DNA of 20,000 bases from an uncultured virus (IMG/VR IMGVR_UViG_3300013119_000619). Taxonomy: Duplodnaviria; Heunggongvirae; Uroviricota; Caudoviricetes. The notes beneath the pieces were generated by a model, which made no database searches, was not told the DNA's origin, and saw only the letters and a program-made list of their open reading frames with translations. Positions within the stretch are counted from its first letter, which is position 1. Each line of letters begins with the position of its first letter. The stretch is from IMG/VR virus record IMGVR_UViG_3300013119_000619. One strand, given 5' to 3'. Made by a program: the position numbers and the translations under genes. Positions 3,805 through 19,803 of the stretch are shown here, piece after piece.

Positions 3805-6502
3805 AAGTCACATCACCTTCTTTTAATAATGTTGTACCGTCTTTATGAGATTTATCAAGATATGAATCGCCCGAACACTGTATTGATATTGGATCTTTAA
3901 CAATACCACATTTTTTATCAGGAAATACAAACGAATTTAACCATAGATCATATGTGTCCCAACCAGTATTCTCAAACTTTTCAATAAAATATGATTTTTT
4001 ATTTGTTGGTACTAGATAACAGTGTGCTTCTGACATTCTATCTGTAACTCCAAAATCTTCATATTCATCATAATGCCAATCAGGTATGCGTTTACCAAAT
4101 GACATGTAATTCAAATCATTATACATTAAATCATCATAACTGTCAATAATAATTTTGAATACTTCTTCTGGAGGTTTAATAAATATTGCATCACACTCAC
4201 AAAACAAAATAGCATCATAATCATCAGTCATGTGTTCTTCAAATACTCTACGATGAGCCATATAATTACCATAATGGGCACCAGTCAATTTATAATCACC
4301 AGGCTCCATTTGAACAACATCAGGTCTAGCACAAGTATCTACAGGTGGTAAGTCAGTAAATCTTTTATTCATAGATTGTTCATAAACCCAACCAGAGACA
4401 TTTAATAATTCTGTTATATGTTTTATACTCTCAATTTCTCTTGATCCTTCAGTGGTACATAACATGTGAACTACTTTGATCTTTGGATATCTTTTTGCCC
4501 ATAACTGTCCTAAACCGTTCTCGTCTGGTTGAGAACTTTTGATATGTTCACGCTCAACATCAAAACCTAAATTTGTTAGTCTGTTTTCAAGTTCTTGACA
4601 TCGGTGGTAATGATCATCTAAATTACCCGAATTATTAAATTGGTGTAACTCGGCACTAATTTTTCTTACTTTATGTTTTAAAAAATCGTCTGATATGGTC
4701 GGAAATATATCCCACTCAGCACCTTCACAATCTAATTTTATTGCATCTATTCTATTTACGTTATTGTTTTGTATGAAATGATTGAAACTCATCGTATTCA
4801 CTTCAATCTTTTTAGTCTGTCCTAATGATGTTGGATTTTCATTTTGAGTATTATAACTTTCATAAAACGAATTTGTACTACTAGGACCAACAAGCAAAAA
4901 TTCTTTTTCACCAACATCGTTACTCAAAGCACAATTATATTTTTTTACATTATCAAAGTTTTTTAAATTCTTAGAAATTATTTTATAATTTGTGTGTGAA
5001 GGTTCAAGCACATGAACTTCTTTTGCACCTTTATCCAAAGCATATAATGAAAAGAACCCATAATGGCCTCCAACATCTAATACAACATCATCTTTTCGTA
5101 TATCAAGTTTTTTGTAAACTTTTGAAATAAAAACTTCATTCATAGTAAACCAAGATGATGGATCATCATCAATACCCACAACATCTATTTCTTGTCCATT
5201 TACAGTTACGCTTGGTATATCACGATTGAATGAGAAACTTTTTTCATATAACAGATGATGTTTGTCTATTCTATTGAAATTTAAATCTCTTAAATTTGAA
5301 AAATAACTCTCCTTCGCATCAAAAATTTTTACAGTAAAACCGTCTACGAGACTTGCCAGAGGACTTGGTGTACAAAACATGTTTTGCACCATAACCTTAC
5401 TTCTCATCACACAAAGTTTCGTTCTTTTATCGTAAATACAGATCAATTTATTATGCAAAGCATTAAATGCCTTTTCTGAAAAATTGAAATTTATTTTTAC
5501 CTGCTTTGATATATCGCCCTCAAAATCAGTATAGCAATTCACATCTCCTTCGGTTAGACCTAACGCATGTTTAATTTTTAGAAAGTTGAGTTTGGTATCA
5601 ATTGACAAATAAGTTGCTTTTTTGTCATATTTGTCCATATAAGAATCTGTTTTATGCATTAGTATTGGAATGTTCCAACTAACCGCCTCCTTTAAAACAA
5701 GAGGATTTGTCTCTTTATCACCTTCATGACCTCTTGAAGGAAATAAAAATAAATCCATACAGGAATAAAAATTCTCAACGTCTTTACGCTCGCCCCAAAT
5801 AATACAATTCTGAGGTTTATTATTCATCAATGGTTCCCAATAATCTTTAAAGTTTGGTGCCTGATTACCTAAAAAATGAAATTGTATTTTTTCATTCTCA
5901 AGTTGTCTTGCATATTCAAATATTTCACCTTGATTTTTTCTTGATGTAAAAAGACCAACATGTAATACGTGTTTAAAATTAGGATCTAAACCTAGTGTTC
6001 TCAAACCCTGATCTCTATCGTTTCTCTTATAGTTGTATTCAGGATACTCTATAACACATGCTGGTATATCAACTGATCTAAATTTAATGAGTTGATTATC
6101 ACTGCAAAATAAAAATTTGTCTGGAAAAAATCTTTTATTTCCTGGTTCAAAAGATGAATCATGAGAGGTCTCAAAAATTTTATATTTTCTATTTGGATGA
6201 TATATTAAATGTGTTAACTCATCTGATATACTAAACAACTCAGGCATTTCTTCAAAATGTATGATATCAGGTTTTATATTTTTTATATGAGACATTATCT
6301 CATATTTGTCATCACCTAAAGTTATCAATGGTTTTTTGAGAAGTTCTATGATTTGATCTTTTTGTATTCTGAATATTCCAAAATCTTGGAATTCAATTAC
6401 ATGAACATCATATTCGTCTATTAATAATTCTAATTTTCTAAGTAGATATTGGGGAGCCCCACCTGTAGATAAATGGGGTGTCACATATAGAAGTTTTTGC
6501 AT
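3794..6502 (-). CDS. Fusion: GT4 glycosyltransferase + FkbM-family methyltransferase + C-terminal GT25/GT-A-like domain (902 aa)
   Basis: GT4 motifs LYVTPHLSTGGAPQY, HVGLFTSRKNQ, DLFLFPS...ETNPLVLKEA. FkbM motifs VVLDVGGHYGFFS, VLEP, IDAIKLDCEGAE. C-terminal GNYMAHRRVF...AILFCECDAIF resembles GT25. Confidence 0.88.
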   Translation of the reverse strand: MQKLLYVTPHLSTGGAPQYLLRKLELLIDEYDVHVIEFQDFGIFRIQKDQIIELLKKPLITLGDDKYEIMSHIKNIKPDIIHFEEMPELFSISDELTHLIYHPNRKYKIFETSHDSSFEPGNKRFFPDKFLFCSDNQLIKFRSVDIPACVIEYPEYNYKRNDRDQGLRTLGLDPNFKHVLHVGLFTSRKNQGEIFEYARQLENEKIQFHFLGNQAPNFKDYWEPLMNNKPQNCIIWGERKDVENFYSCMDLFLFPSRGHEGDKETNPLVLKEAVSWNIPILMHKTDSYMDKYDKKATYLSIDTKLNFLKIKHALGLTEGDVNCYTDFEGDISKQVKINFNFSEKAFNALHNKLICIYDKRTKLCVMRSKVMVQNMFCTPSPLASLVDGFTVKIFDAKESYFSNLRDLNFNRIDKHHLLYEKSFSFNRDIPSVTVNGQEIDVVGIDDDPSSWFTMNEVFISKVYKKLDIRKDDVVLDVGGHYGFFSLYALDKGAKEVHVLEPSHTNYKIISKNLKNFDNVKKYNCALSNDVGEKEFLLVGPSSTNSFYESYNTQNENPTSLGQTKKIEVNTMSFNHFIQNNNVNRIDAIKLDCEGAEWDIFPTISDDFLKHKVRKISAELHQFNNSGNLDDHYHRCQELENRLTNLGFDVEREHIKSSQPDENGLGQLWAKRYPKIKVVHMLCTTEGSREIESIKHITELLNVSGWVYEQSMNKRFTDLPPVDTCARPDVVQMEPGDYKLTGAHYGNYMAHRRVFEEHMTDDYDAILFCECDAIFIKPPEEVFKIIIDSYDDLMYNDLNYMSFGKRIPDWHYDEYEDFGVTDRMSEAHCYLVPTNKKSYFIEKFENTGWDTYDLWLNSFVFPDKKCGIVKDPISIQCSGDSYLDKSHKDGTTLLKEGDVTYEL

Positions 6503-6568
6503 AATTTTAAATTTTGTATGTTATTGGTTGTTTCTGTTCCCAGGCACAACCAGAAAAGCCCGTAGCAA

Positions 6569-6616
6569 TTAAGCGGCTAAAGCCACTTGTGCTGAGGTAT
6601 AATCGTTATTGTTTGC
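6569..6616 (-). other. tmRNA tag reading frame, (A)ANNNDYTSAQVALAA*
   Basis: GCA AAC AAT AAC GAT TAT ACC TCA GCA CAA GTG GCT TTA GCC GCT TAA. It has the typical GCA resume codon after an AU-rich context and a C-terminal LAA degradation motif. Confidence 0.93.
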
Positions 6617-6620
6617 GATT

Positions 6621-6649
6621 ATTATAGCAGACATTTTTACATCTGTCAA
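6621..6649 (-). promoter_or_regulatory. Consensus sigma70-type promoter (TTGACA-N17-TATAAT with extended -10 TG) inside the tmRNA coding piece
   Basis: Minus strand: TTGACA (6649-6644) GATGTAAAAATGTCTGC (17 nt) TATAAT (6626-6621). Predicted +1 is near 6614. Activity is not demonstrated. Confidence 0.65.
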
Positions 6650-6701
6650 GTGATGTGTCTCCTCTGCATAGTCACAGTCAGTCGAATCCGAACACCCCCA
6701 A

Positions 6702-6794
6702 TTAAATAAGCAGAAAAACTTCTAATAAATAATAAAAACCTAATATAAGTGTTAATATAAATACCCAAAGGAACACATTGCTTGAATCATTCAT
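6702..6794 (-). CDS. Putative 30-aa single-pass membrane peptide in the tmRNA intervening segment
   Basis: ATG 6794 to TAA 6702 gives MNDSSNVFLWVFILTLILGFYYLLEVFLLI. There is a weak GAG 5 nt upstream of the ATG, and the ORF occupies 93 of the 105 nt between CCA and G1. It is below the ORF-track size cutoff. Confidence 0.5.
   Translation of the reverse strand: MNDSSNVFLWVFILTLILGFYYLLEVFLLI
6756..6763 (+). promoter_or_regulatory. Possible T4-type late promoter (TATAAATA) for the plus-strand genes
   Basis: Exact TATAAATA about 135 nt upstream of ATG 6898. The AT-rich background makes a chance match possible. Confidence 0.4.
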
Positions 6795-6869
6795 GTGATC
6801 TCGTTGGTGGAGGTGGTGGGAATTGAACCCACGTCCTGTTCTGATATTCTGCAGAATCATTGACATATA

Positions 6870-6877
6870 TATTTATA
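6870..6877 (-). promoter_or_regulatory. T4-type late promoter (TATAAATA) for the tmRNA precursor
   Basis: Minus strand TTGTATAAATATATATGTC. The exact T4 gp55 consensus sits immediately upstream of the acceptor piece, placing +1 near 6863. Confidence 0.7.
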
Positions 6878-6897
6878 CAACCTTTTTATGGATTATA

Positions 6898-8655
6898 ATG
6901 ACAGTATCTTATACAAATACGGACGCCACAAGTAGAATGCTCAAAGCTATGAGCAACGGTTTAAAAAGAATGACTGATAGTGAATTAGAAGTTGTTGCCC
7001 ATAAACTTCAAGAATGGTTCACTTTGAAACTTACTACTGCTGATTTTCGAAGTTGGCACTCTTCTTGGGTGGGATATTATTCTAATGCACCTTATGGTGC
7101 ACTTATAATGTCCACATTAAATAGAGGTGTTACATCGAGTGTTCAGTCTTTTCAGGTGACTGATACAAGATATAACGCTACGACAACATCCAAAACACAG
7201 AATGCATGGGATAATTATGGAGATGATGATGATACCTTTGATGATCCTGCTGACATTTCAATAGTAAATCAACAACATTATTACCTATCACAACGTCATT
7301 ATGCGAGTTATACTACATCTACTCCTGGATTTTCTGGTCAAACATTAACAACTAATGGTGATTATTACAACACCATAAGAGGTTGGAACGGTACTGATAG
7401 CGTTTCTGTGAATGCTTGGTCACCAGCAGAAATGATAAGAGACTATGGGCATTTAACCGCAACTACTGATGGTACGGTTAAGATAGAAAAAGACGTACAA
7501 AAAATATATGAAGCAATCTTTAAATATGTAAATGCTAGAATTAGGAGCACGGATAATGATAAAAATTTTGGTCAATATAAAATAGCGACAAGTTGGCCAG
7601 GAAATGGATGGTATCCTGTAAGAGAGGTAATGGGACAAGAACAAACTTATTATTATTATGCGTTTTCAGATGTCGTGAGTACAGTTGACGGTCATAATCA
7701 TTTTTATGATTTAAGTGCATACTCAACCAGATATATTTGGAACCTTTGGATAAAAAATATAACTAGGAATTCTGCTAACGTATATGGAGATTTTGTTAAA
7801 TTTTCAGGAGACGGTTTTGGTGATAGTACCTCGGCAAGACCTACCAGATTATCCAGATGGAAAATTACTGCACATTCGGGCTCAGCATTAGAAGGAACTA
7901 ATAGTGGTGACGTAAGAGAATATTTTGCTACTGGTGATTATAATGGTATTGGAAAATATTTTTATTTTAAACCTGCCCACGCAAATGGAGGTTCAATATA
8001 CGTTTCTTCTAATTATAACAATTCGAGTCCAAGCGCCTCATCTTTTGAAGGTAGTGCTAGAACTGTAAATGTATTGACACCTGATGAAGTAACAGATAGA
8101 TGGCAATATCAAACTCGTAATGCCACACTAGCACCTAGTGGTAATTCAGCAGATGGACATATTTATCTTTATGCAAATCAAAAATATACGGCAACGTCAA
8201 GTTTTAATACAAACACTGTTTATAAATGTGAAAGAATGAACCGATTGATCGAGATGGAGTTACCTTATTTAGAGGATTATGATAATAGATGGAATTGGAA
8301 TGTCTATTACGGCACCACATCTTATGAGGATGGTGCAGTATTAGGAAGGAGAAGAGATCACTATCTAAAAAACTATATTCAAAATGTACTATATAGATTA
8401 TACACTTTAGGTAGATATTATCCGATTTATAGTTTAGCCACATCAGTAGGTTCTTCTCAATTTGATCATGGAATATTTTCCAATTCAGTCAGAGGAGGCA
8501 CAAACGTTACGAATAAAGTTTTTGGTCCTGGTCTGTATTTTGAGGATTGGTTTGCACCTGATACATCAGGAACCTATTATAAAGTCAGAGGTGCAGGGGC
8601 CGCCAGTGGTTATGTAACAGATACTTATTACCTAGTCTCAGACGTAGATATATAA
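6898..8655 (+). CDS. Putative phage virion structural protein (585 aa), paralog of 9470-10609
   Basis: Start re-assigned from TTG 6823 (antisense to the tmRNA T arm) to ATG 6898, which has GGA upstream. The protein is S/T/G/N/Y/W-rich. It shares LKxMxDSxLE, NAxDNYGDDDDTF and TSGTYYKxR with the 379-aa protein. The structural role is inferred from composition and context. Confidence 0.7.
   Translation: MTVSYTNTDATSRMLKAMSNGLKRMTDSELEVVAHKLQEWFTLKLTTADFRSWHSSWVGYYSNAPYGALIMSTLNRGVTSSVQSFQVTDTRYNATTTSKTQNAWDNYGDDDDTFDDPADISIVNQQHYYLSQRHYASYTTSTPGFSGQTLTTNGDYYNTIRGWNGTDSVSVNAWSPAEMIRDYGHLTATTDGTVKIEKDVQKIYEAIFKYVNARIRSTDNDKNFGQYKIATSWPGNGWYPVREVMGQEQTYYYYAFSDVVSTVDGHNHFYDLSAYSTRYIWNLWIKNITRNSANVYGDFVKFSGDGFGDSTSARPTRLSRWKITAHSGSALEGTNSGDVREYFATGDYNGIGKYFYFKPAHANGGSIYVSSNYNNSSPSASSFEGSARTVNVLTPDEVTDRWQYQTRNATLAPSGNSADGHIYLYANQKYTATSSFNTNTVYKCERMNRLIEMELPYLEDYDNRWNWNVYYGTTSYEDGAVLGRRRDHYLKNYIQNVLYRLYTLGRYYPIYSLATSVGSSQFDHGIFSNSVRGGTNVTNKVFGPGLYFEDWFAPDTSGTYYKVRGAGAASGYVTDTYYLVSDVDI
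7210..7235 (+). repeat. 26-nt exact direct repeat, copy 1 (GATAATTATGGAGATGATGATGATAC)
   Basis: Identical to 9761-9786; encodes DNYGDDDDT in both paralogs. Confidence 0.9.
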
Positions 8656-15338: not shown

Positions 15339-16382
15339 TTATCTCCATTGATCACCAAATGCATCAAATCCTGTTCCACATTTTTCTGCACAAACTTTTG
15401 ATTTACCATTCGAACAACTTGAAATATTCCATGATTTTTCTATATTTTGAAAAAAACTTCCCTCTATAATTTTTCGCAAAGGATTATGTAAGGCATTAAT
15501 AGTTTGTAACTCATTATTGAGATATGACCACATTTGATTTTGTCCCAAACGTTCATAAGATTTGTAAAGTTTACCAGCCGTCCAACAACAAGGAGTTACT
15601 AATCCTTCTGCTGAAATATATATTTCTCTCGTTTGTAAGGATTTACATACTATTTCTGTAGCATCAAGATATGAATTAAAATCTCCATGGTTGTTTATTA
15701 ACTTTTCGTAATCATTTACACTCTTGTTCTGATATTCTTTTTTGCTCGGTGGTTTAATCTCATTACCTTTAGATGTTTCCTTTTTGTCTATTTTATTTCC
15801 TTTGTATGATTGTACCCATCTGCCTGTTTTTTTCTTTATAAATTCAAGACCAAATAGTTTTGCCATACGTTCTGCTTCTTCTACTTGATGTTCATTATGT
15901 TCGAATATTAAAAAAACCCAAAGACCTTTTCCTCCTGCTTGTGTATAAACGTCCATTGAATTTTCAACTCTTTTCCAATCAACATTAACTCTATATAGAT
16001 GATTTGTATCTTCAAGTCCATCAACTGAAAAAGTAACCTTACCGTTTTTTCCAAAAATTTTTGCAAGATTTTTCCACCAATCATTTGATCGACCACCTCC
16101 ATTTGTTGTCATATGTAGATAGAGATCAGAATTATTATATCTTAACCATTCATACATGTCAAGCGTATCTTTTGCAACCATAGGATCACCATGATTTCCG
16201 CACATGAGAAAACTATTTAATTGCTTTGCAAAATCAGAATCTATTATTTGCTTGAATTGATCTAAGGAAAGTTCAGCATTTTTGATGTGAGGATTATTTG
16301 TTCTATCACACATCGGACATAATGCTTGACACCTCTGAGTTGGTTCAAAATGAACGTGAGTTATTTCAGTAGATTTATACAT
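15339..16382 (-). CDS. Radical SAM protein with C-terminal SPASM/twitch-like Cys cluster (347 aa)
   Basis: CQALCPMC (CxxxCxxC), MCGNHGDP, MTTNGG, FSVDG; C-terminal VCK...PCC...CAEKC. Start is probably ATG 16382 (MYKSTEIT). Confidence 0.9.
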   Translation of the reverse strand: MYKSTEITHVHFEPTQRCQALCPMCDRTNNPHIKNAELSLDQFKQIIDSDFAKQLNSFLMCGNHGDPMVAKDTLDMYEWLRYNNSDLYLHMTTNGGGRSNDWWKNLAKIFGKNGKVTFSVDGLEDTNHLYRVNVDWKRVENSMDVYTQAGGKGLWVFLIFEHNEHQVEEAERMAKLFGLEFIKKKTGRWVQSYKGNKIDKKETSKGNEIKPPSKKEYQNKSVNDYEKLINNHGDFNSYLDATEIVCKSLQTREIYISAEGLVTPCCWTAGKLYKSYERLGQNQMWSYLNNELQTINALHNPLRKIIEGSFFQNIEKSWNISSCSNGKSKVCAEKCGTGFDAFGDQWR

Positions 16383-17320
16383 TTTGTTTTTAAGACATTT
16401 AAACAATCATCAAAATTACCAGAGCAAAAATGTCCTTGATTATTAAATTCATTTTTGAATTCTTCTAGTTTTGTAAATGCTATCGTATCAATTTTCATTG
16501 CTCTTGATAGGTGTGTCCACATACCTTCCGATGATATAAAAAAATGACTTCTTGATAATAACTCAACATTTCTTTCATAATTTACATCCTCCAATCTTAC
16601 AAAAGTTAGGTTTGAAAATTTACTTTTAGCCTTTTCAAACTTTTTCAGCATTTCAAAAGTTATTGATGTGTATTCATCAGCATTATGTTCAACAAAAGAC
16701 CCATCATCATTAATCATATAGAACATAAATGTAATTATCGTTTTAGTTTTTGGTTCAAAATTTATCGGCCAATATTTACCATCTTCCCAAAATTGATCAT
16801 GAGATTTTAAATAGATTTTATTTTTATAAAAATTATTTCTATCACATTCTTCAAACCGTTTATAATTATTTTTTTTGTTAGTTATTATTTTATGTTTGAT
16901 TGGTTTACAATTAAAAAATTCGATAACGTCATAAAAATTATTGGCAGATAATATTAACTCTTTTTTTACCTGCGAGTTTGGATTTGGTTTAGTATATAAA
17001 TTAATTTGAACATCTATTGCATGTCCAAAAGAATTAATGGTGTACAAAAGAATAGTAGTCATAATAAATCTATCCCCCAAACCACCATCATTTAAAGGAA
17101 AATCAAATGTCAAAATATTTTCTGGAAAGGCATTATATTTTTTTATATACCAAAAAATGACATTTTTATAAAACTGGAGACTGTTATGATCTGCTTTAAA
17201 TTGTTTAATAAAATTATTTGTAGCATCAAAATTAAATAGTATTAAAGATGAATATTGCTGTAACTCTCTTAAAGTATAATCTTCTATAATTTTTTTAATT
17301 GATCGTTCGTCCATAATCAT
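16361..17320 (-). CDS. Hypothetical protein with GT-B / GT9 (heptosyltransferase)-like motifs (319 aa)
   Basis: GGLGDRFI and C-terminal LLSRSHFFISSEGMWTHLSRAMKIDTIAF, resembling the GT9 pattern FIGxDSGxxHLAxA. Confidence 0.55.
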   Translation of the reverse strand: MIMDERSIKKIIEDYTLRELQQYSSLILFNFDATNNFIKQFKADHNSLQFYKNVIFWYIKKYNAFPENILTFDFPLNDGGLGDRFIMTTILLYTINSFGHAIDVQINLYTKPNPNSQVKKELILSANNFYDVIEFFNCKPIKHKIITNKKNNYKRFEECDRNNFYKNKIYLKSHDQFWEDGKYWPINFEPKTKTIITFMFYMINDDGSFVEHNADEYTSITFEMLKKFEKAKSKFSNLTFVRLEDVNYERNVELLSRSHFFISSEGMWTHLSRAMKIDTIAFTKLEEFKNEFNNQGHFCSGNFDDCLNVLKTKCINLLK

Positions 17321-18623
17321 CTAAAATATCTATCAAATCTGAATTCAAAAAATCTTTATAAGTTTGATTTCTGGTTTCATCCAAAAGTGCTATTTCATTA
17401 TATAAGTTTTTTATATTTTTATTTTTATAATTGAGGGAATGGTCTATTAATGAAATCACTTTGTCAATTTCATAATGAAAATAATTACCTTTATGCATAT
17501 AATCATATTTTTTAGTTCTGAATGTTTCAAATTTAGTTTGAAACTCTGTAATATCTTTTTTGACTTTCATTAAATAATCATTTGGTAGGTTTGCAATATC
17601 TATACCTCTACCATGAGGTCTCACTTCCGACATAAAAATATTACAACGTATCTTATCATGAAACATCAAAGATGTCCATTCTAAAAAATCAACAACATTA
17701 CCGATATTTAAGGCGGATAATACAAGATTAATATTTAAAGCATAAACATTAGTAGATTTCTTAAACCATTTTTTTATGTTTTTTTCCAACATAGTAAAAT
17801 TTGCGTTATGTCTTATATAATCATATATCGAATCAACCCCATCAATACTAAAAGAATGTCTTTGTATTCTAAATTGATTCATCAAATCTATTATTTCATC
17901 TGTAATTAACATTGCATTTGTATGCAAAACCAACTCTGTGTCTTTACTATTACCGTCTTTTACAAATTTTCTTAAAAGATTTAGAATATTATTATCATAT
18001 AAGGGTTCACCTCCTGATGCTTTAAATACTTTAATTTTATCCGTATTATTATAAATCCATTTTATAAGGTGGTTGTTTTTTACATTTTGAGGTAAATTGT
18101 GAGATTTAATTGAATTATTTGAAGCATCATCAAATAAAGACATTTTATTATTTTTTTTAAGTTTGTCTACATCTTCCCATATTTGATGTGAAGATCCTGT
18201 ATTGCACATTCTACATGCTAAATTGCATTTATTGGATAAAGATATGTCAACTTCTTTTAAATCTGTATTAAATTTTTCAGGGAATTGCCATCTAGTATAA
18301 AGTCTATGAGACATTATACCTTTGTCTTCTAAATTCCAACAAGTTGAACATCTTTCATCTCTTATATTATTCAACAAATTGCTACGCAATTTGTTGAATT
18401 TTTCATGATGAAATATTTCTTGTGGAGACAACCCTTTTAATTCGTTCTTTGTTAAGATTGAATGAAACTCCTCTGTTTGCTTATCACGAGTGTCATGCAT
18501 CATACAACAAGGAGCAACCGCTTTTAAATCATTTTTGTCATACAATTTAAAAACTATAGCATAAAATGGATAATAACAAAACGTATTGTCTTTCGAAGGT
18601 TCAATCATTATAGTATCTTTCAA
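17295..18623 (-). CDS. Radical SAM protein with N-terminal twitch-like domain (442 aa)
   Basis: N-terminal FCYYPF...APCC...RCSTCW, then CNLACRMC, ASGGEP, LHTNA, FSIDG. Confidence 0.9.
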   Translation of the reverse strand: MKDTIMIEPSKDNTFCYYPFYAIVFKLYDKNDLKAVAPCCMMHDTRDKQTEEFHSILTKNELKGLSPQEIFHHEKFNKLRSNLLNNIRDERCSTCWNLEDKGIMSHRLYTRWQFPEKFNTDLKEVDISLSNKCNLACRMCNTGSSHQIWEDVDKLKKNNKMSLFDDASNNSIKSHNLPQNVKNNHLIKWIYNNTDKIKVFKASGGEPLYDNNILNLLRKFVKDGNSKDTELVLHTNAMLITDEIIDLMNQFRIQRHSFSIDGVDSIYDYIRHNANFTMLEKNIKKWFKKSTNVYALNINLVLSALNIGNVVDFLEWTSLMFHDKIRCNIFMSEVRPHGRGIDIANLPNDYLMKVKKDITEFQTKFETFRTKKYDYMHKGNYFHYEIDKVISLIDHSLNYKNKNIKNLYNEIALLDETRNQTYKDFLNSDLIDILDDYGRTIN

Positions 18624-19803
18624 ATTCTGGCCACTCTTCTAATAAATTTGTATTGTGAATAATATCATATTTTTTTAAGTATTTTATACCTAATTTGAAA
18701 TGTTCATGTTCTTTTAAACTTGAATCGAACAATCTATGAGTTTCATTTCTTTCTTTATAAATTTCTACAATATCATTTGGTAAATTATTTATTTGAAGAT
18801 AAAATGGCTCAACTAAAACATTAAAAAAACTAGGTTTCTTTCTATATTTTAGACAAAAATTTGTTATTTCAGATTGATATCCGACGTTTAAAATAGACAT
18901 TGTTGAACAAAATTCAAGATTAAAAAACGAAATTAATTGCTCGATATTTTTTGTTTTTTCTACAAAATTAGTTCCTCTTCGTATATACTCATCTTTTTTA
19001 AAAACACCATCTAAAGATACATTGATAGTAAAAGACTGAAATTTGTCATAAATTGCTCTAAAATTTTTCACAAGTTTTGACATATTAGAAAAAACGACAA
19101 GATGTATACGTTCAGCAAATCTATTTTTTATTATCCATTGAATAAACTCATAAAATTCATCATTGATAAAAGGTTCTCCACCAGAAATAATTATGCGCCT
19201 TATATTAGGAATTAATGTTATTAACTCCTTATAAAATTTTTCATTAAAATTATATGTAATCGAATTCATATCCAGTACAAATTCATAATCGAATGATTCT
19301 TGATATAATTTACCATATTTCTCAAAACTTGCTTTACTAATACTATCTTTCAATTCTTTAAAAACCGTCATTTCTTTTTTGTCATTTCTTTCTTGTGCCC
19401 ATCTAGAAGATGAATAAGGACCACATGTCAAACATTTCAAATTACAAAGATTGCCAAATTTCAATTTTATTGTATCAGAAGTTGGTCTTAAAAATTTATT
19501 ATTTTTAAATTGTTTAATAATGTTTTTATTTATTTTTGTTTCTCTTCTCGACCAAGAATTTAGTTCTTCACGTTCTATACAATGAATACATGTGCCTCGT
19601 ATTTTTTCTGTTAATTCACCTCTTATCATATCAAATCTAATTTCATTTAGATATTCCGAATTAAAATATTCTAAAATAGATTTATCATTTGTATTGATTT
19701 TTGAACTTAATCTCGCATCACTACATAACTTATATTCGTTGAGAGAATCAACATAGACATATGTAAAAGGAAGGGCACAAAAAACTTTGTTGTCTATTTC
19801 CAT
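18601..19803 (-). CDS. Radical SAM protein with N-terminal twitch-like domain (400 aa)
   Basis: N-terminal FCALPF...KLCS...TCIHC, then CNLKCLTC, ISGGEPF, VFSNM, VSLDG. Confidence 0.9.
   Translation of the reverse strand: MEIDNKVFCALPFTYVYVDSLNEYKLCSDARLSSKINTNDKSILEYFNSEYLNEIRFDMIRGELTEKIRGTCIHCIEREELNSWSRRETKINKNIIKQFKNNKFLRPTSDTIKLKFGNLCNLKCLTCGPYSSSRWAQERNDKKEMTVFKELKDSISKASFEKYGKLYQESFDYEFVLDMNSITYNFNEKFYKELITLIPNIRRIIISGGEPFINDEFYEFIQWIIKNRFAERIHLVVFSNMSKLVKNFRAIYDKFQSFTINVSLDGVFKKDEYIRRGTNFVEKTKNIEQLISFFNLEFCSTMSILNVGYQSEITNFCLKYRKKPSFFNVLVEPFYLQINNLPNDIVEIYKERNETHRLFDSSLKEHEHFKLGIKYLKKYDIIHNTNLLEEWPEFERYYND

What the first reader, a model, noticed from the sequence alone, without database searches (positions are those of the whole stretch)
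6700..6804. A 30-aa hydrophobic ORF fills the excised spacer of the two-piece tmRNA
Seen: the 105-nt spacer between CCA and G1 contains ATG (10 nt after CCA) to TAA (2 nt before G1), encoding MNDSSNVFLWVFILTLILGFYYLLEVFLLI, a short polar head plus a transmembrane-length hydrophobic run. Known: this spacer is normally a short non-coding segment removed during maturation. Inference: the pre-tmRNA may double as an mRNA, or processing may release a mini-mRNA for a small membrane protein (toxin-, holin-regulator- or exclusion-like), coupling its expression to tmRNA maturation. The spacer may also act as a cargo slot. Caveat: U-rich sequence encodes hydrophobic residues by chance and the Shine-Dalgarno is weak.
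Basis: partly seen in the sequence, partly recalled or inferred. Interest (0 to 1): 0.82.

Follow-up and report, generated by a model that had tools for sequence, protein, structure and literature searches.

The report
Membrane-peptide gene inside phage tmRNA spacer
The stretch that is cut out when this marine phage's two-piece ribosome-rescue RNA (tmRNA) matures carries a real, evolutionarily maintained gene for a 30-residue membrane peptide, so one transcript probably serves both as a messenger and as a stable-RNA precursor.

Summary
A circularly permuted tmRNA (Rfam RF04321, 100.5 bits) lies on the minus strand at 6867..6569. Its 105-nt intervening sequence (6804..6700) holds an ATG-to-TAA ORF of 30 codons (6794..6702).

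The ORF is not a chance product of U-rich sequence. Scans anchored on the tmRNA T-arm found 18 same-clade loci with complete spacers:
- All 15 spacers of 104-107 nt (11 distinct sequences) keep an intact 28-30-codon ORF.
- This includes an in-frame two-codon deletion.
- pN/pS is 0.41, against 0.70 and 1.47 in the shifted frames.
- Third codon positions vary most (25 of 29).
- The probability of keeping the frame under random substitution is about 5e-6.

Ten of the 11 distinct sequences carry AGGAG, GGGAG or GGAAG before the ATG. The window's ACGAG is a degraded copy.

Three sister loci have the same tmRNA but a 52-nt spacer without the gene. Other phage tmRNAs carry an SNase nuclease gene or a Cys-rich ORF in the same slot.

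Translation, the coupling to processing and the peptide's function remain untested. Earlier reports of this scan noted protein genes in phage tmRNA spacers on other DNA, but this peptide family was not among them.

The parts
6870..6877 (-). Conserved TATAAATA box directly upstream of the first conserved tmRNA base; candidate -10-type promoter element of the pre-tmRNA transcript
   Evidence: One search places it at 6877..6870 on the minus strand. In the locus alignment sequence conservation begins abruptly at this box. It is exact in 9 of 11 aligned relatives and has 7 of 8 matches in L175 and L198. Promoter function is inferred only; the motif is not enriched in the window (2 found, 5.2 expected).
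6805..6867 (-). Acceptor (5') piece of the permuted tmRNA: 5' strand of the long helix, T-arm, 3' strand of the acceptor stem and the encoded CCA (6807-6805)
   Evidence: Rfam RF04321 alignment, model positions 1-65; sequence; 87-99% identical among lineage representatives.
6700..6804 (-). Intervening sequence (IVS, spacer) between CCA and G1, 105 nt; absent from the mature two-piece tmRNA
   Evidence: It appears as an insertion in the RF04321 alignment. Its length is 104-107 nt in all 11 distinct ORF-bearing relatives.
6795..6804 (-). 10-nt leader with a degraded Shine-Dalgarno (ACGAG)
   Evidence: the 10 other distinct sequences have AGGAG (7), GGGAG (1) or GGAAG (2) at this place.
6702..6794 (-). 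30-codon ORF plus TAA stop: short acidic head, one transmembrane-length helix, no basic residue
   Evidence: Coding constraint is shown.
6765..6807 (-). Predicted hairpin in which the CCA end and the SD region pair with codons 8-10 of the ORF, occluding the initiation region
   Evidence: -9.7 kcal/mol in the window, -10.3 to -14.0 in 8 relatives, and kept with different arm sequences in L175 and L198 (-7.2). It is absent from the ORF-less L166. Removing CCA costs 2.4-4.9 kcal/mol. This is a prediction only.
6569..6699 (-). Coding (3') piece of the tmRNA from G1 (6699) to the stop of the tag reading frame; tag frame 6616..6569 (15 codons plus stop)
   Evidence: RF04321 alignment, model positions 87-213; sequence; 80-93% identical among lineage representatives.
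6523..6568 (-). Conserved 3' tail of the tmRNA coding piece, ending about 20 nt before the ATG (6502) of the downstream glycosyltransferase/methyltransferase gene
   Evidence: Locus alignment; downstream ORF.

Best explanation
The intervening sequence of this phage-borne, circularly permuted tmRNA gene contains a real accessory micro-gene. It encodes a 30-residue (28-30 in relatives), single-pass, acidic membrane peptide with no lysine or arginine.

The gene has no room for a promoter of its own: the start is 9-16 nt after CCA. It must therefore be transcribed as part of the pre-tmRNA. I take translation to occur on that primary transcript, on the nascent or not-yet-processed precursor.

Ribosome loading next to CCA and termination 1-4 nt before G1 both need the acceptor stem unpaired. 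Translation and folding or processing into tmRNA should therefore be mutually exclusive on any one molecule. A hairpin that pairs CCA plus the SD with codons 8-10 probably keeps translation low or gated.

RNase P-type cleavage at G1 and 3' maturation at CCA then release the two tmRNA pieces and remove the message.

Shown: the anatomy, purifying selection on the peptide, and the fact that the gene is dispensable. Inferred: translation, its timing and its competition with processing.

The peptide's role is unknown. My best guess (about 45%) is a small inner-membrane modulator of a host membrane protein, of the kind of the bacterial membrane proteins under 50 residues. A membrane-perturbing role in lysis timing, exclusion or toxicity is less likely (about 25%).
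For: - Anatomy: RF04321 at 100.5 bits, with the ORF exactly bracketed by CCA and G1.
- Sampling: relatives were collected with an anchor in the T-arm/acceptor, which is blind to spacer content.
- ORF retention: 18 same-clade loci have complete spacers, and 15 of the 15 spacers of 104-107 nt (11 distinct sequences) hold an intact ORF with a conserved ATG and a stop 1-4 nt before G1.
- In-frame indel: L175 and L198 have a 6-nt shift of the start that is compensated in frame, and the peptide still begins with Met-Asn-Asp.
- Selection: summed pN/pS is 0.41 in the ORF frame against 0.70 and 1.47 in the shifted frames. L148 against L217 gives 0.07. Both halves carry the signal: 0.32 and 0.47, against 0.55-1.89 when shifted.
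- Periodicity: variable columns by codon position are 17, 12 and 25 of 29 each. Position 3 against position 2 gives Fisher p 0.0008.
- Divergence: the ORF is 55-85% identical between lineages while the mature pieces are 80-99% identical.
- Simulation: under random substitution the ORF would stay intact in five lineages with a product probability of 4.7e-6.
- Conserved residues: ten columns are invariant, an acidic residue sits at position 25 in 10 of 10 sequences, and no K, R or H occurs in any.
- SD: 10 of 11 distinct sequences have AGGAG, GGGAG or GGAAG 5-11 nt before the ATG.
- Context: a profile search of 1.84 billion representatives found only one further variant, again fused to the translated T-arm, so it lies in the same context.
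- RNA libraries: contigs from two metatranscriptome libraries of one study carry the whole spacer joined to tmRNA on both sides with 0-1 mismatches. These are X10 record 1 (6666-6816) and X11 record 3 (6670-6845).
Against: - No direct evidence of translation exists.
- The RNA-library contigs may be DNA carry-over. They come from the same study as runs that may be the source of this DNA, and contigs show neither ends nor strand.
- In this window the SD is degraded to ACGAG.
- Only 2 of 17 neighbouring ORFs have any SD-like motif. AGGAG is therefore atypical for this phage and may be conserved partly as a hairpin arm.
- The predicted hairpin buries the SD and the start codon, which argues for low translation.
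- A pN/pS of 0.41 is moderate. The pairwise sums count shared branches repeatedly. The retention simulation uses a consensus ancestor and a star tree.
- All relatives share an exact 26-nt anchor, so only a narrow clade was sampled. The viral and metagenome collections also overlap; L153, for example, repeats L008.
- The gene is absent from three sister loci, so it is not needed for tmRNA function.
Confidence: 0.72

Rival explanations
1. The excised spacer itself is the functional message. Cleavage at CCA and at G1 releases a minimal mRNA of 104-107 nt (SD, ORF, stop). Removing CCA loosens the SD hairpin, so the peptide is made only after, and in proportion to, tmRNA maturation.
For: - The stop codon lies 1-4 nt before G1 in 11 of 11 distinct sequences and never overlaps the mature RNA.
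- The SD begins 1-2 nt after CCA.
- Removing CCA lowers the predicted hairpin stability by 2.4-4.9 kcal/mol in 6 of 6 representatives.
Against: - The released fragment would have no protective 3' structure. By general knowledge of tRNA leader and trailer fragments (recalled), it should be short-lived.
- In two other phage tmRNAs (L005, L118 type) the spacer ORF runs past G1, so it can be read completely only on the uncut precursor.
- No free IVS RNA could be shown, because only contigs were available.
Confidence: 0.2
2. The spacer is conserved as RNA, for example as a processing guide or a hairpin that protects the CCA end. On this view the open frame is incidental and not translated to any useful extent.
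For: - A hairpin involving CCA and the SD region is predicted in all 11 ORF-bearing sequences. Mononucleotide-shuffle z-scores run from -1.0 to -3.8, and it is kept with changed arms in L175 and L198.
- Codons 1-14 are the most conserved at nucleotide level.
- SD motifs are rare in this phage (2 of 17).
- Most other phage spacers are non-coding hairpins.
Against: - RNA structure does not explain three-base periodicity (17, 12, 25).
- It does not explain frame-specific pN/pS in the half outside the hairpin (0.47 against 0.89 and 1.89).
- It does not explain the retained ATG and stop in 11 of 11 sequences, the in-frame indel with a re-created N-terminal motif, or the conservative E/D, I/L/V and F/W/Y exchanges.
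- The hairpin z-scores are weak in 7 of 11 sequences (weaker than -2).
Confidence: 0.06
3. The ORF is a chance frame in U-rich, AT-rich sequence.
For: The spacer is 25% G+C. Hydrophobic codons are U-rich. The single-sequence probability is not extreme: 123 of 20,000 shuffles.
Against: Retention in five diverged lineages has a product probability of 4.7e-6 under random substitution. No full-length spacer is disrupted (0 of 15 loci). A coding signature is present.
Confidence: 0.02

Closest known systems
Circularly permuted (two-piece) tmRNA genes: Alphaproteobacteria, Betaproteobacteria, Cyanobacteria and marine/aquatic phages such as OM43 phage Melnitz and the pelagimyophages (Rfam RF04321, RF01849-51; PMC9004378 and PMC11915505, passages read)
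   Same: The gene order is the same: acceptor piece with encoded CCA, then an intervening sequence, then G1 and the coding piece with the tag frame. It scores 100.5 bits on RF04321. Phage-borne two-piece tmRNAs are already reported as mainly marine or aquatic: 53 of 133 unique phage tmRNAs, 50 of them aquatic (PMC9004378, passage read).
   Different: In the described genes the intervening sequence is treated as a discarded, non-coding linker. Here it is filled by a selected protein-coding gene with its own SD. It also lacks the end-to-end complementarity that extends the acceptor stem in most other phage spacers I examined.
Unusual contents of tmRNA intervening sequences listed in the 2025 tmRNA database paper (PMC11915505, passages read)
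   Same: That paper shows the IVS can tolerate inserts: an intact tRNA-Ala gene, called a unique feature, and a repetitive element in the longest gene (1152 bp).
   Different: Those inserts are an RNA gene and a repeat. The passages I read mention no protein-coding IVS. I did not read the supplementary tables.
Dual-function RNAs that are both regulator or stable RNA and mRNA, such as SgrS/SgrT and RNAIII/delta-haemolysin (recalled; not checked in any call)
   Same: One transcript yields both a functional RNA and a small peptide. In RNAIII the peptide is membrane-active.
   Different: In those cases the same mature RNA does both jobs. Here the coding part is the segment removed from the stable RNA, so the two products are physically separated by processing.
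ORF-bearing intervening sequences of 23S rRNA (S23p ORFs of Leptospira and Coxiella) and ORFs between phage T4 tRNA genes
   Same: A protein gene sits in a segment that is excised from, or lies between, stable-RNA precursors made by tRNA/rRNA processing enzymes.
   Different: The host RNA and the processing enzymes differ. Here the ORF is bracketed within a few nucleotides by the two ends of a single acceptor stem.
Bacterial small membrane proteins under 50 residues (YncL, YoaK, PmrR clusters in the ESM Atlas)
   Same: Same length class, with a single hydrophobic helix. They are the nearest clusters by language-model features (scores 0.76-0.82).
   Different: The scores are in the range that shuffled sequences reach a third of the time. 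No sequence homology was found. This is a resemblance of class, not membership.

Membership tests
Permuted two-piece tmRNA (Rfam RF04321) | Covariance-model score above the curated gathering score | tested here: met
   100.5 bits against 47, E 6.8e-19, full model 1-213. Relatives score 85.5-100.5 bits.
Permuted two-piece tmRNA (Rfam RF04321) | Permuted order: T-arm and CCA upstream of G1, with a 7-bp acceptor stem containing the G3:U pair formed between the two pieces | tested here: met
   Read and the CM alignment. The seven bases from G1 (6699-6693) pair with the seven bases that precede ACCA, and the third pair is G:U.
Permuted two-piece tmRNA (Rfam RF04321) | Tag reading frame after a resume codon, ending in a hydrophobic Ala-rich tail and a stop | tested here: met
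   Frame 6616..6569: 15 codons ending Ala-Leu-Ala-Ala plus stop. It is conserved in relatives.
Permuted two-piece tmRNA (Rfam RF04321) | Precursor actually cut into two base-paired RNAs, with loss of the spacer | not testable with these tools
   Only assembled contigs of RNA libraries were available, and they cannot show RNA ends.
Protein-coding gene (small membrane protein) | Open frame, start and stop kept across diverged relatives, with indels in multiples of three | tested here: met
   15 of 15 full-length spacer loci (11 of 11 distinct sequences), and one in-frame 6-nt change.
Protein-coding gene (small membrane protein) | Purifying selection specific to the reading frame | tested here: met
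   pN/pS 0.41 against 0.70 and 1.47 in shifted frames; the signal is present in both halves; periodicity p about 0.001.
Protein-coding gene (small membrane protein) | Ribosome binding site at the proper distance | tested here: inconclusive
   Strong in 10 of 11 distinct sequences but ACGAG in the window. It is predicted to be paired in a hairpin. SD motifs are rare in this phage (2 of 17).
Protein-coding gene (small membrane protein) | Demonstrated translation or peptide detection | not testable with these tools
   No Ribo-seq or proteome data were accessible. The peptide has no K or R, so tryptic proteomics would not see it as fragments.
Phage holin | Transmembrane domain(s) followed by a highly charged, basic C-terminal tail | tested here: not met
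   No K, R or H in any of 10 aligned sequences, and the peptide ends within or right after the hydrophobic helix.
Phage holin | Lies in a lysis cassette next to an endolysin or spanin | tested here: not met
   The neighbours are glycosyltransferase, FkbM methyltransferase, radical-SAM and unknown proteins. Pfam recognised families in 5 of 17 ORFs and PHROGs in 3 of 17; none is a lysis gene. Only 20 kb of a genome estimated at about 200 kb is visible.
Type I toxin-antitoxin toxin (Hok, TisB, Fst kind) | Small hydrophobic peptide whose mRNA is held translationally inert by an SD-occluding fold until processed | tested here: inconclusive
   The peptide class fits, and an SD-occluding hairpin that weakens on CCA removal is predicted, but only by folding.
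Type I toxin-antitoxin toxin (Hok, TisB, Fst kind) | Cognate antisense RNA antitoxin, and toxicity on expression | not tested
   I ran no test for an antisense transcript. The promoter scan of 6350-7050 listed three plus-strand promoter-like sites (at 6478-6505, 6872-6899 and 6910-6938), none inside the spacer. Toxicity needs an experiment.

The most novel reading that the evidence does not exclude
Phage two-piece tmRNA genes use their excised intervening sequence as a general cargo slot for small genes. Examples seen here are this membrane peptide, an SNase-type nuclease and a Cys-rich protein.

In this clade, the excised 104-107-nt spacer would be a self-contained mini-mRNA. Its ribosome binding site would be unmasked by the same cut that creates the tmRNA's CCA end. 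The peptide would then be produced only when, and as often as, a tmRNA molecule matures. That would be a processing-gated message nested in a stable-RNA precursor.
Probability: 0.25. Interest if true: 0.8.

Novelty: new variant of a known kind. Interest (0 to 1): 0.62.

Why it matters
tmRNA is already the textbook hybrid of a tRNA and an mRNA. A second, conventional message nested in the part of the precursor that is thrown away would add a new layer to its gene. It would also give a natural case in which translation and stable-RNA folding compete on one transcript.

There are practical consequences:
- ARAGORN missed this tmRNA.
- A gene caller produced a false 54-residue fusion with the translated T-arm.
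- Genes of this kind are therefore invisible or mis-called in phage annotation.
- The peptide has no lysine or arginine, so standard proteomics would miss it as well.

If the spacer is a general slot for small phage genes, it is a defined, easily searched place to look for new phage-host effectors.

Tried and rejected
- ARAGORN found no tRNA or tmRNA in the window. blastn of the tmRNA against 50,697 phage records found nothing.
- **Clade-specific scans.** Scans of viral contigs with a coding-piece motif and an ORF motif returned only the same four contigs.
- **Homologue searches.** The search for homologous proteins does not accept queries under 40 residues. The profile search of representatives gave a single hit in the same context. 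The Atlas was unreachable twice; when it answered, all scores were 0.82 or below and not usable. Pfam gave nothing significant for the peptide (FixP_N, E 0.15) or for the L118 Cys-rich ORF.
- **A 54-codon version of the ORF.** It would start at an ATG inside the acceptor piece. I rejected it because L217, L175 and L198 have no in-frame upstream start and L148 reads the T-arm in another frame.
- **A T4-type late promoter.** The TATAAATA box is conserved, but the motif occurs only twice in the window against 5.2 expected. I make no claim about a late-promoter class or timing.
- In one search the coordinates given for L175 and L217 folded the acceptor piece instead of the spacer. I redid this.
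- **Read laying.** Parts without cover, and the contig ends near 6665-6670, are not interpretable; that spot is variable among strains. The hits in X18 and X20 are T-arm matches from other tmRNAs or diverged relatives.
- **False candidates in the census.** L024 and L038 are tRNA clusters. L119 and L188 are standard tmRNAs.
- **Host and phage family.** The best phage match of the neighbouring 902-residue protein is an uncultured 735-kb phage at 38.5% identity, so host and phage family stay open.
- **Holin and type I toxin membership.** See Membership tests.
- **Not run.** A script to tabulate peptide charge did not run, so composition was read by eye. No structure or complex prediction was run, because a 30-residue helix would not discriminate between the readings.
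- **Papers not held.** The two founding papers on two-piece tmRNA (PMC16621, PMC516066) are not held. Statements about their content are recalled.

Full report
**Observation.** On the minus strand the window carries a circularly permuted tmRNA gene. Rfam RF04321 matches 6867..6569 over the whole model at 100.5 bits (gathering score 47, E 6.8e-19). The sequence read gives these positions:
- encoded CCA at 6807-6805
- a 105-nt spacer at 6804..6700
- an ATG at 6794, 10 nt after CCA
- a TAA at 6704-6702
- two further bases, then G1 at 6699

ARAGORN reports nothing here.

Taken alone the ORF is only moderately improbable. It appears in 123 of 20,000 dinucleotide shuffles of the spacer and in 28 of 5,686 real 105-nt windows of this sequence.

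**Setting.** The window is 20 kb of a 22,338-base IMG/VR virus record estimated at 11% complete, so the genome is probably about 200 kb. G+C is 24-36%.

Pfam recognised families in 5 of 17 large ORFs: glycosyltransferases, an FkbM methyltransferase and three radical-SAM proteins. PHROGs recognised 3 of 17. The tmRNA gene sits at the head of the minus-strand glycosyltransferase block, and its conserved 3' tail ends about 20 nt before that gene's ATG at 6502.

The nearest catalogued phage for that neighbour is an uncultured 735-kb phage at 38.5% identity. Host and phage family remain open.

**Relatives.** I anchored the searches on the tmRNA T-arm/acceptor, which says nothing about the spacer.
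- The exact 26-mer gave 8 viral loci and 82 metagenome loci.
- Rfam confirmed permuted tmRNAs in 6 of 8, 18 of 20 and 10 of 12 loci submitted.

Eighteen loci of the window's own clade, the window included, have a complete spacer. Fifteen have spacers of 104-107 nt, giving 11 distinct sequences. Three (L166, L173, L210) have a 52-nt spacer. Three further loci are cut off by contig ends: L152 just after the ORF start, and L185 and L220 at or a few bases past CCA.

**Is it coding?** All 15 full-length spacers keep an intact ORF of 28-30 codons with a conserved ATG and a stop 1-4 nt before G1. None has a frameshift or an internal stop.
- In L175 and L198 the leader is 6 nt longer and the ORF two codons shorter. 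The frame is kept, the peptide still begins Met-Asn-Asp, and the spacer length is unchanged.
- Summed over all pairs, pN/pS is 0.41 in the ORF frame against 0.70 and 1.47 in the two shifted frames. The pair L148/L217 gives 0.07.
- The signal holds both in codons 2-14 (0.32) and in codons 15-30 (0.47), where shifted frames give 0.55-1.89.
- Variable columns number 17, 12 and 25 of 29 at codon positions 1, 2 and 3. Position 3 against position 2 gives Fisher p 0.0008.
- The ORF is 55-85% identical between lineages while the mature tmRNA pieces are 80-99% identical. The spacer therefore evolves fast yet stays open.
- Placing the observed number of substitutions at random keeps the ORF intact with probability 0.16, 0.14, 0.075, 0.14 and 0.02 in five lineages, a product of 4.7e-6. 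That simulation uses a star tree and a consensus ancestor, so it is approximate.
- The peptide alignment has ten invariant columns, an acidic residue at position 25 in 10 of 10 sequences, and no K, R or H anywhere.
- Its maximum 19-residue hydropathy is 2.39.

I conclude that the peptide is under purifying selection.

**Start site and initiation region.** Ten of the 11 distinct sequences carry AGGAG (7), GGGAG (1) or GGAAG (2) before the ATG. The window's ACGAG is one substitution away from AGGAG.

The longer 54-codon frame that a gene caller used for the only database hit is not conserved.

Folding predicts a hairpin in which CCA and the SD pair with codons 8-10. Its free energy is -9.7 kcal/mol in the window and -10.3 to -14.0 in eight relatives. 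L175 and L198 form it with different arm sequences (-7.2), and the ORF-less L166 has none. Removing CCA costs 2.4-4.9 kcal/mol.

Two points count against efficient translation. The hairpin buries the initiation region. Only 2 of 17 neighbouring ORFs have an SD-like motif, so AGGAG may be kept partly as a hairpin arm.

**Dispensable, and a slot.** L166, L173 and L210 have the same tmRNA pieces. In L166, the only one of the three whose contig reaches that far, the downstream gene start is also the same. Their 52-nt spacer lacks the gene.

In my census of 41 distinct spacers of permuted tmRNAs, 25 from other clades are 4-96 nt long (three false candidates were removed). By inspection none of these holds a comparable SD-led ORF. 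Many have complementary ends and TGAT before G1.

Two other clades do carry genes:
- L005 (and the identical L190) has a 453-nt spacer with a 155-codon SNase-family ORF. Pfam PF00565 scores 33.7 bits against a cut-off of 21. Its stop lies 27 nt inside the mature tmRNA.
- L118-type loci (8 of 9 contigs found with its G1 29-mer) have a 134-nt spacer with an SD-led, 58-codon Cys-rich ORF. It occurs in two variants that differ at three sites, two of them synonymous. The ninth contig (L225) has the identical tmRNA 5' end but an unrelated 86-nt non-coding hairpin spacer. That ORF has no Pfam match.

**Expression.** Twenty public runs hold part of the stretch, five of them on record as RNA. I laid four RNA runs.
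- X10 record 1 (6666-6816, one mismatch) and X11 record 3 (6670-6845, none) carry the whole spacer joined to tmRNA sequence on both sides.
- X10 record 2 runs 6800-6950.

This fits an unprocessed precursor. However, both runs belong to one study, the same study as DNA runs that may be the source of this contig. DNA carry-over cannot be excluded, and contigs show neither ends nor strand.

**The peptide.** A profile of ten variants searched against 1.84 billion representatives found one protein (E 2.3e-12). Its first 24 residues are the translated T-arm, so it is a twelfth variant in the same context. No free-standing homologue was found, though 30-codon genes are rarely called.

Pfam gives nothing significant. 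The Atlas gives only sub-threshold likeness to small single-pass membrane proteins.

**Mechanism.** There is no space for a promoter between CCA and the ATG, so the gene must ride on the pre-tmRNA transcript. A conserved TATAAATA box marks where conservation begins and may be that transcript's promoter element.

A ribosome initiating 9-16 nt after CCA and terminating 1-4 nt before G1 would need both strands of the acceptor stem single-stranded. Translation and folding into a processable tRNA-like domain should therefore exclude each other on one molecule.

I take translation of the nascent or uncut precursor as most likely. My reasons are that the L005 and L118 ORFs can only be read that way, and that a released fragment without 3' structure should be unstable (recalled general knowledge).

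The alternative is that the excised spacer is a mini-mRNA unmasked by the CCA cut. It fits the strict placement of the stop before G1 and the CCA-dependent hairpin, and I rate it at 0.2-0.25.

Function is inferred only. I favour a small membrane modulator over a holin or toxin, because the peptide lacks any basic residue or charged tail and no lysis genes are nearby.

**Known or new.** Two-piece tmRNAs in marine and aquatic phages are published (PMC9004378, passages read). The 2025 tmRNA database paper lists a tRNA-Ala gene and a repetitive element as unusual IVS contents (PMC11915505, passages read; supplements not read).

Four full-text searches found no paper describing a protein-coding IVS. 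For the four papers listed I saw only the search listing. The founding papers are not held.

Earlier reports of this scan describe protein genes in phage tmRNA spacers on other genomes. Those are unchecked AI notes, not independent evidence.

I class this as a new variant of a known kind.

Noticed in passing
window 6621-6649, minus strand: A perfect sigma-70 consensus (TTGACA, 17 nt, TATAAT, with TG before the -10; 12 of 12) lies inside the tmRNA coding piece, just upstream of the resume codon. It is conserved in all aligned relatives, with a 3-nt insertion in L175 and L198. It could be an internal promoter for the downstream glycosyltransferase block, or merely a consequence of tmRNA sequence constraints.
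   Followed up: partly
L005 627-1106 (identical spacer in L190): A 453-nt tmRNA spacer holds a 155-codon SNase-family nuclease gene (Pfam 33.7 bits). It starts 12 nt after CCA behind AGGA, and its stop lies 27 nt inside the mature tmRNA, so RNase P cleavage would make the message non-stop. A scan with its G1 motif found only the same contig.
   Followed up: partly
L118 327-514 and L221-L229: A 134-nt tmRNA spacer carries an SD-led 58-codon Cys-rich ORF (paired Cys motifs) that runs 54 nt past G1. It is present in 8 of 9 contigs, as two variants that differ at 3 sites, 2 of them synonymous. L225 has the same tmRNA 5' end but an unrelated 86-nt hairpin spacer. There is no Pfam match.
   Followed up: partly
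L166 and L210, spacer and tmRNA coding piece: In the ORF-less sister group an ATG in the 52-nt spacer opens a 54-codon frame. It runs through G1 and the whole 5' part of the tmRNA, in phase with the tag reading frame, and ends at the tag's own stop. There is no SD and it may be coincidence.
   Followed up: no
Spacers of L012, L017, L057, L058, L066, L083, L095, L106 and the window clade: Many phage permuted-tmRNA spacers end in TGAT immediately before G1. In the window clade the 4-nt trailers are TGGT, TGTT or TGAT. This may be a preferred RNase P leader context.
   Followed up: no
L024 2616-2756: A partial OLE RNA match (RF01071, 105 bits, model positions 445-586 of 616) sits amid a cluster of at least 12 tRNA genes on a 118-kb viral contig.
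   Followed up: no
window 6569-6867: ARAGORN does not detect this permuted tmRNA although Rfam scores it at 100.5 bits. In a relative, a gene caller produced a 54-residue protein that fuses the translated T-arm to the peptide. Standard annotation would therefore miss both the RNA and the true small gene.
   Followed up: yes
window 15339-19803, minus strand: Three consecutive or near-consecutive radical-SAM proteins lie among ORFs of unknown family, next to a large glycosyltransferase/methyltransferase block. This may be a phage-encoded modification or glycan pathway.
   Followed up: no
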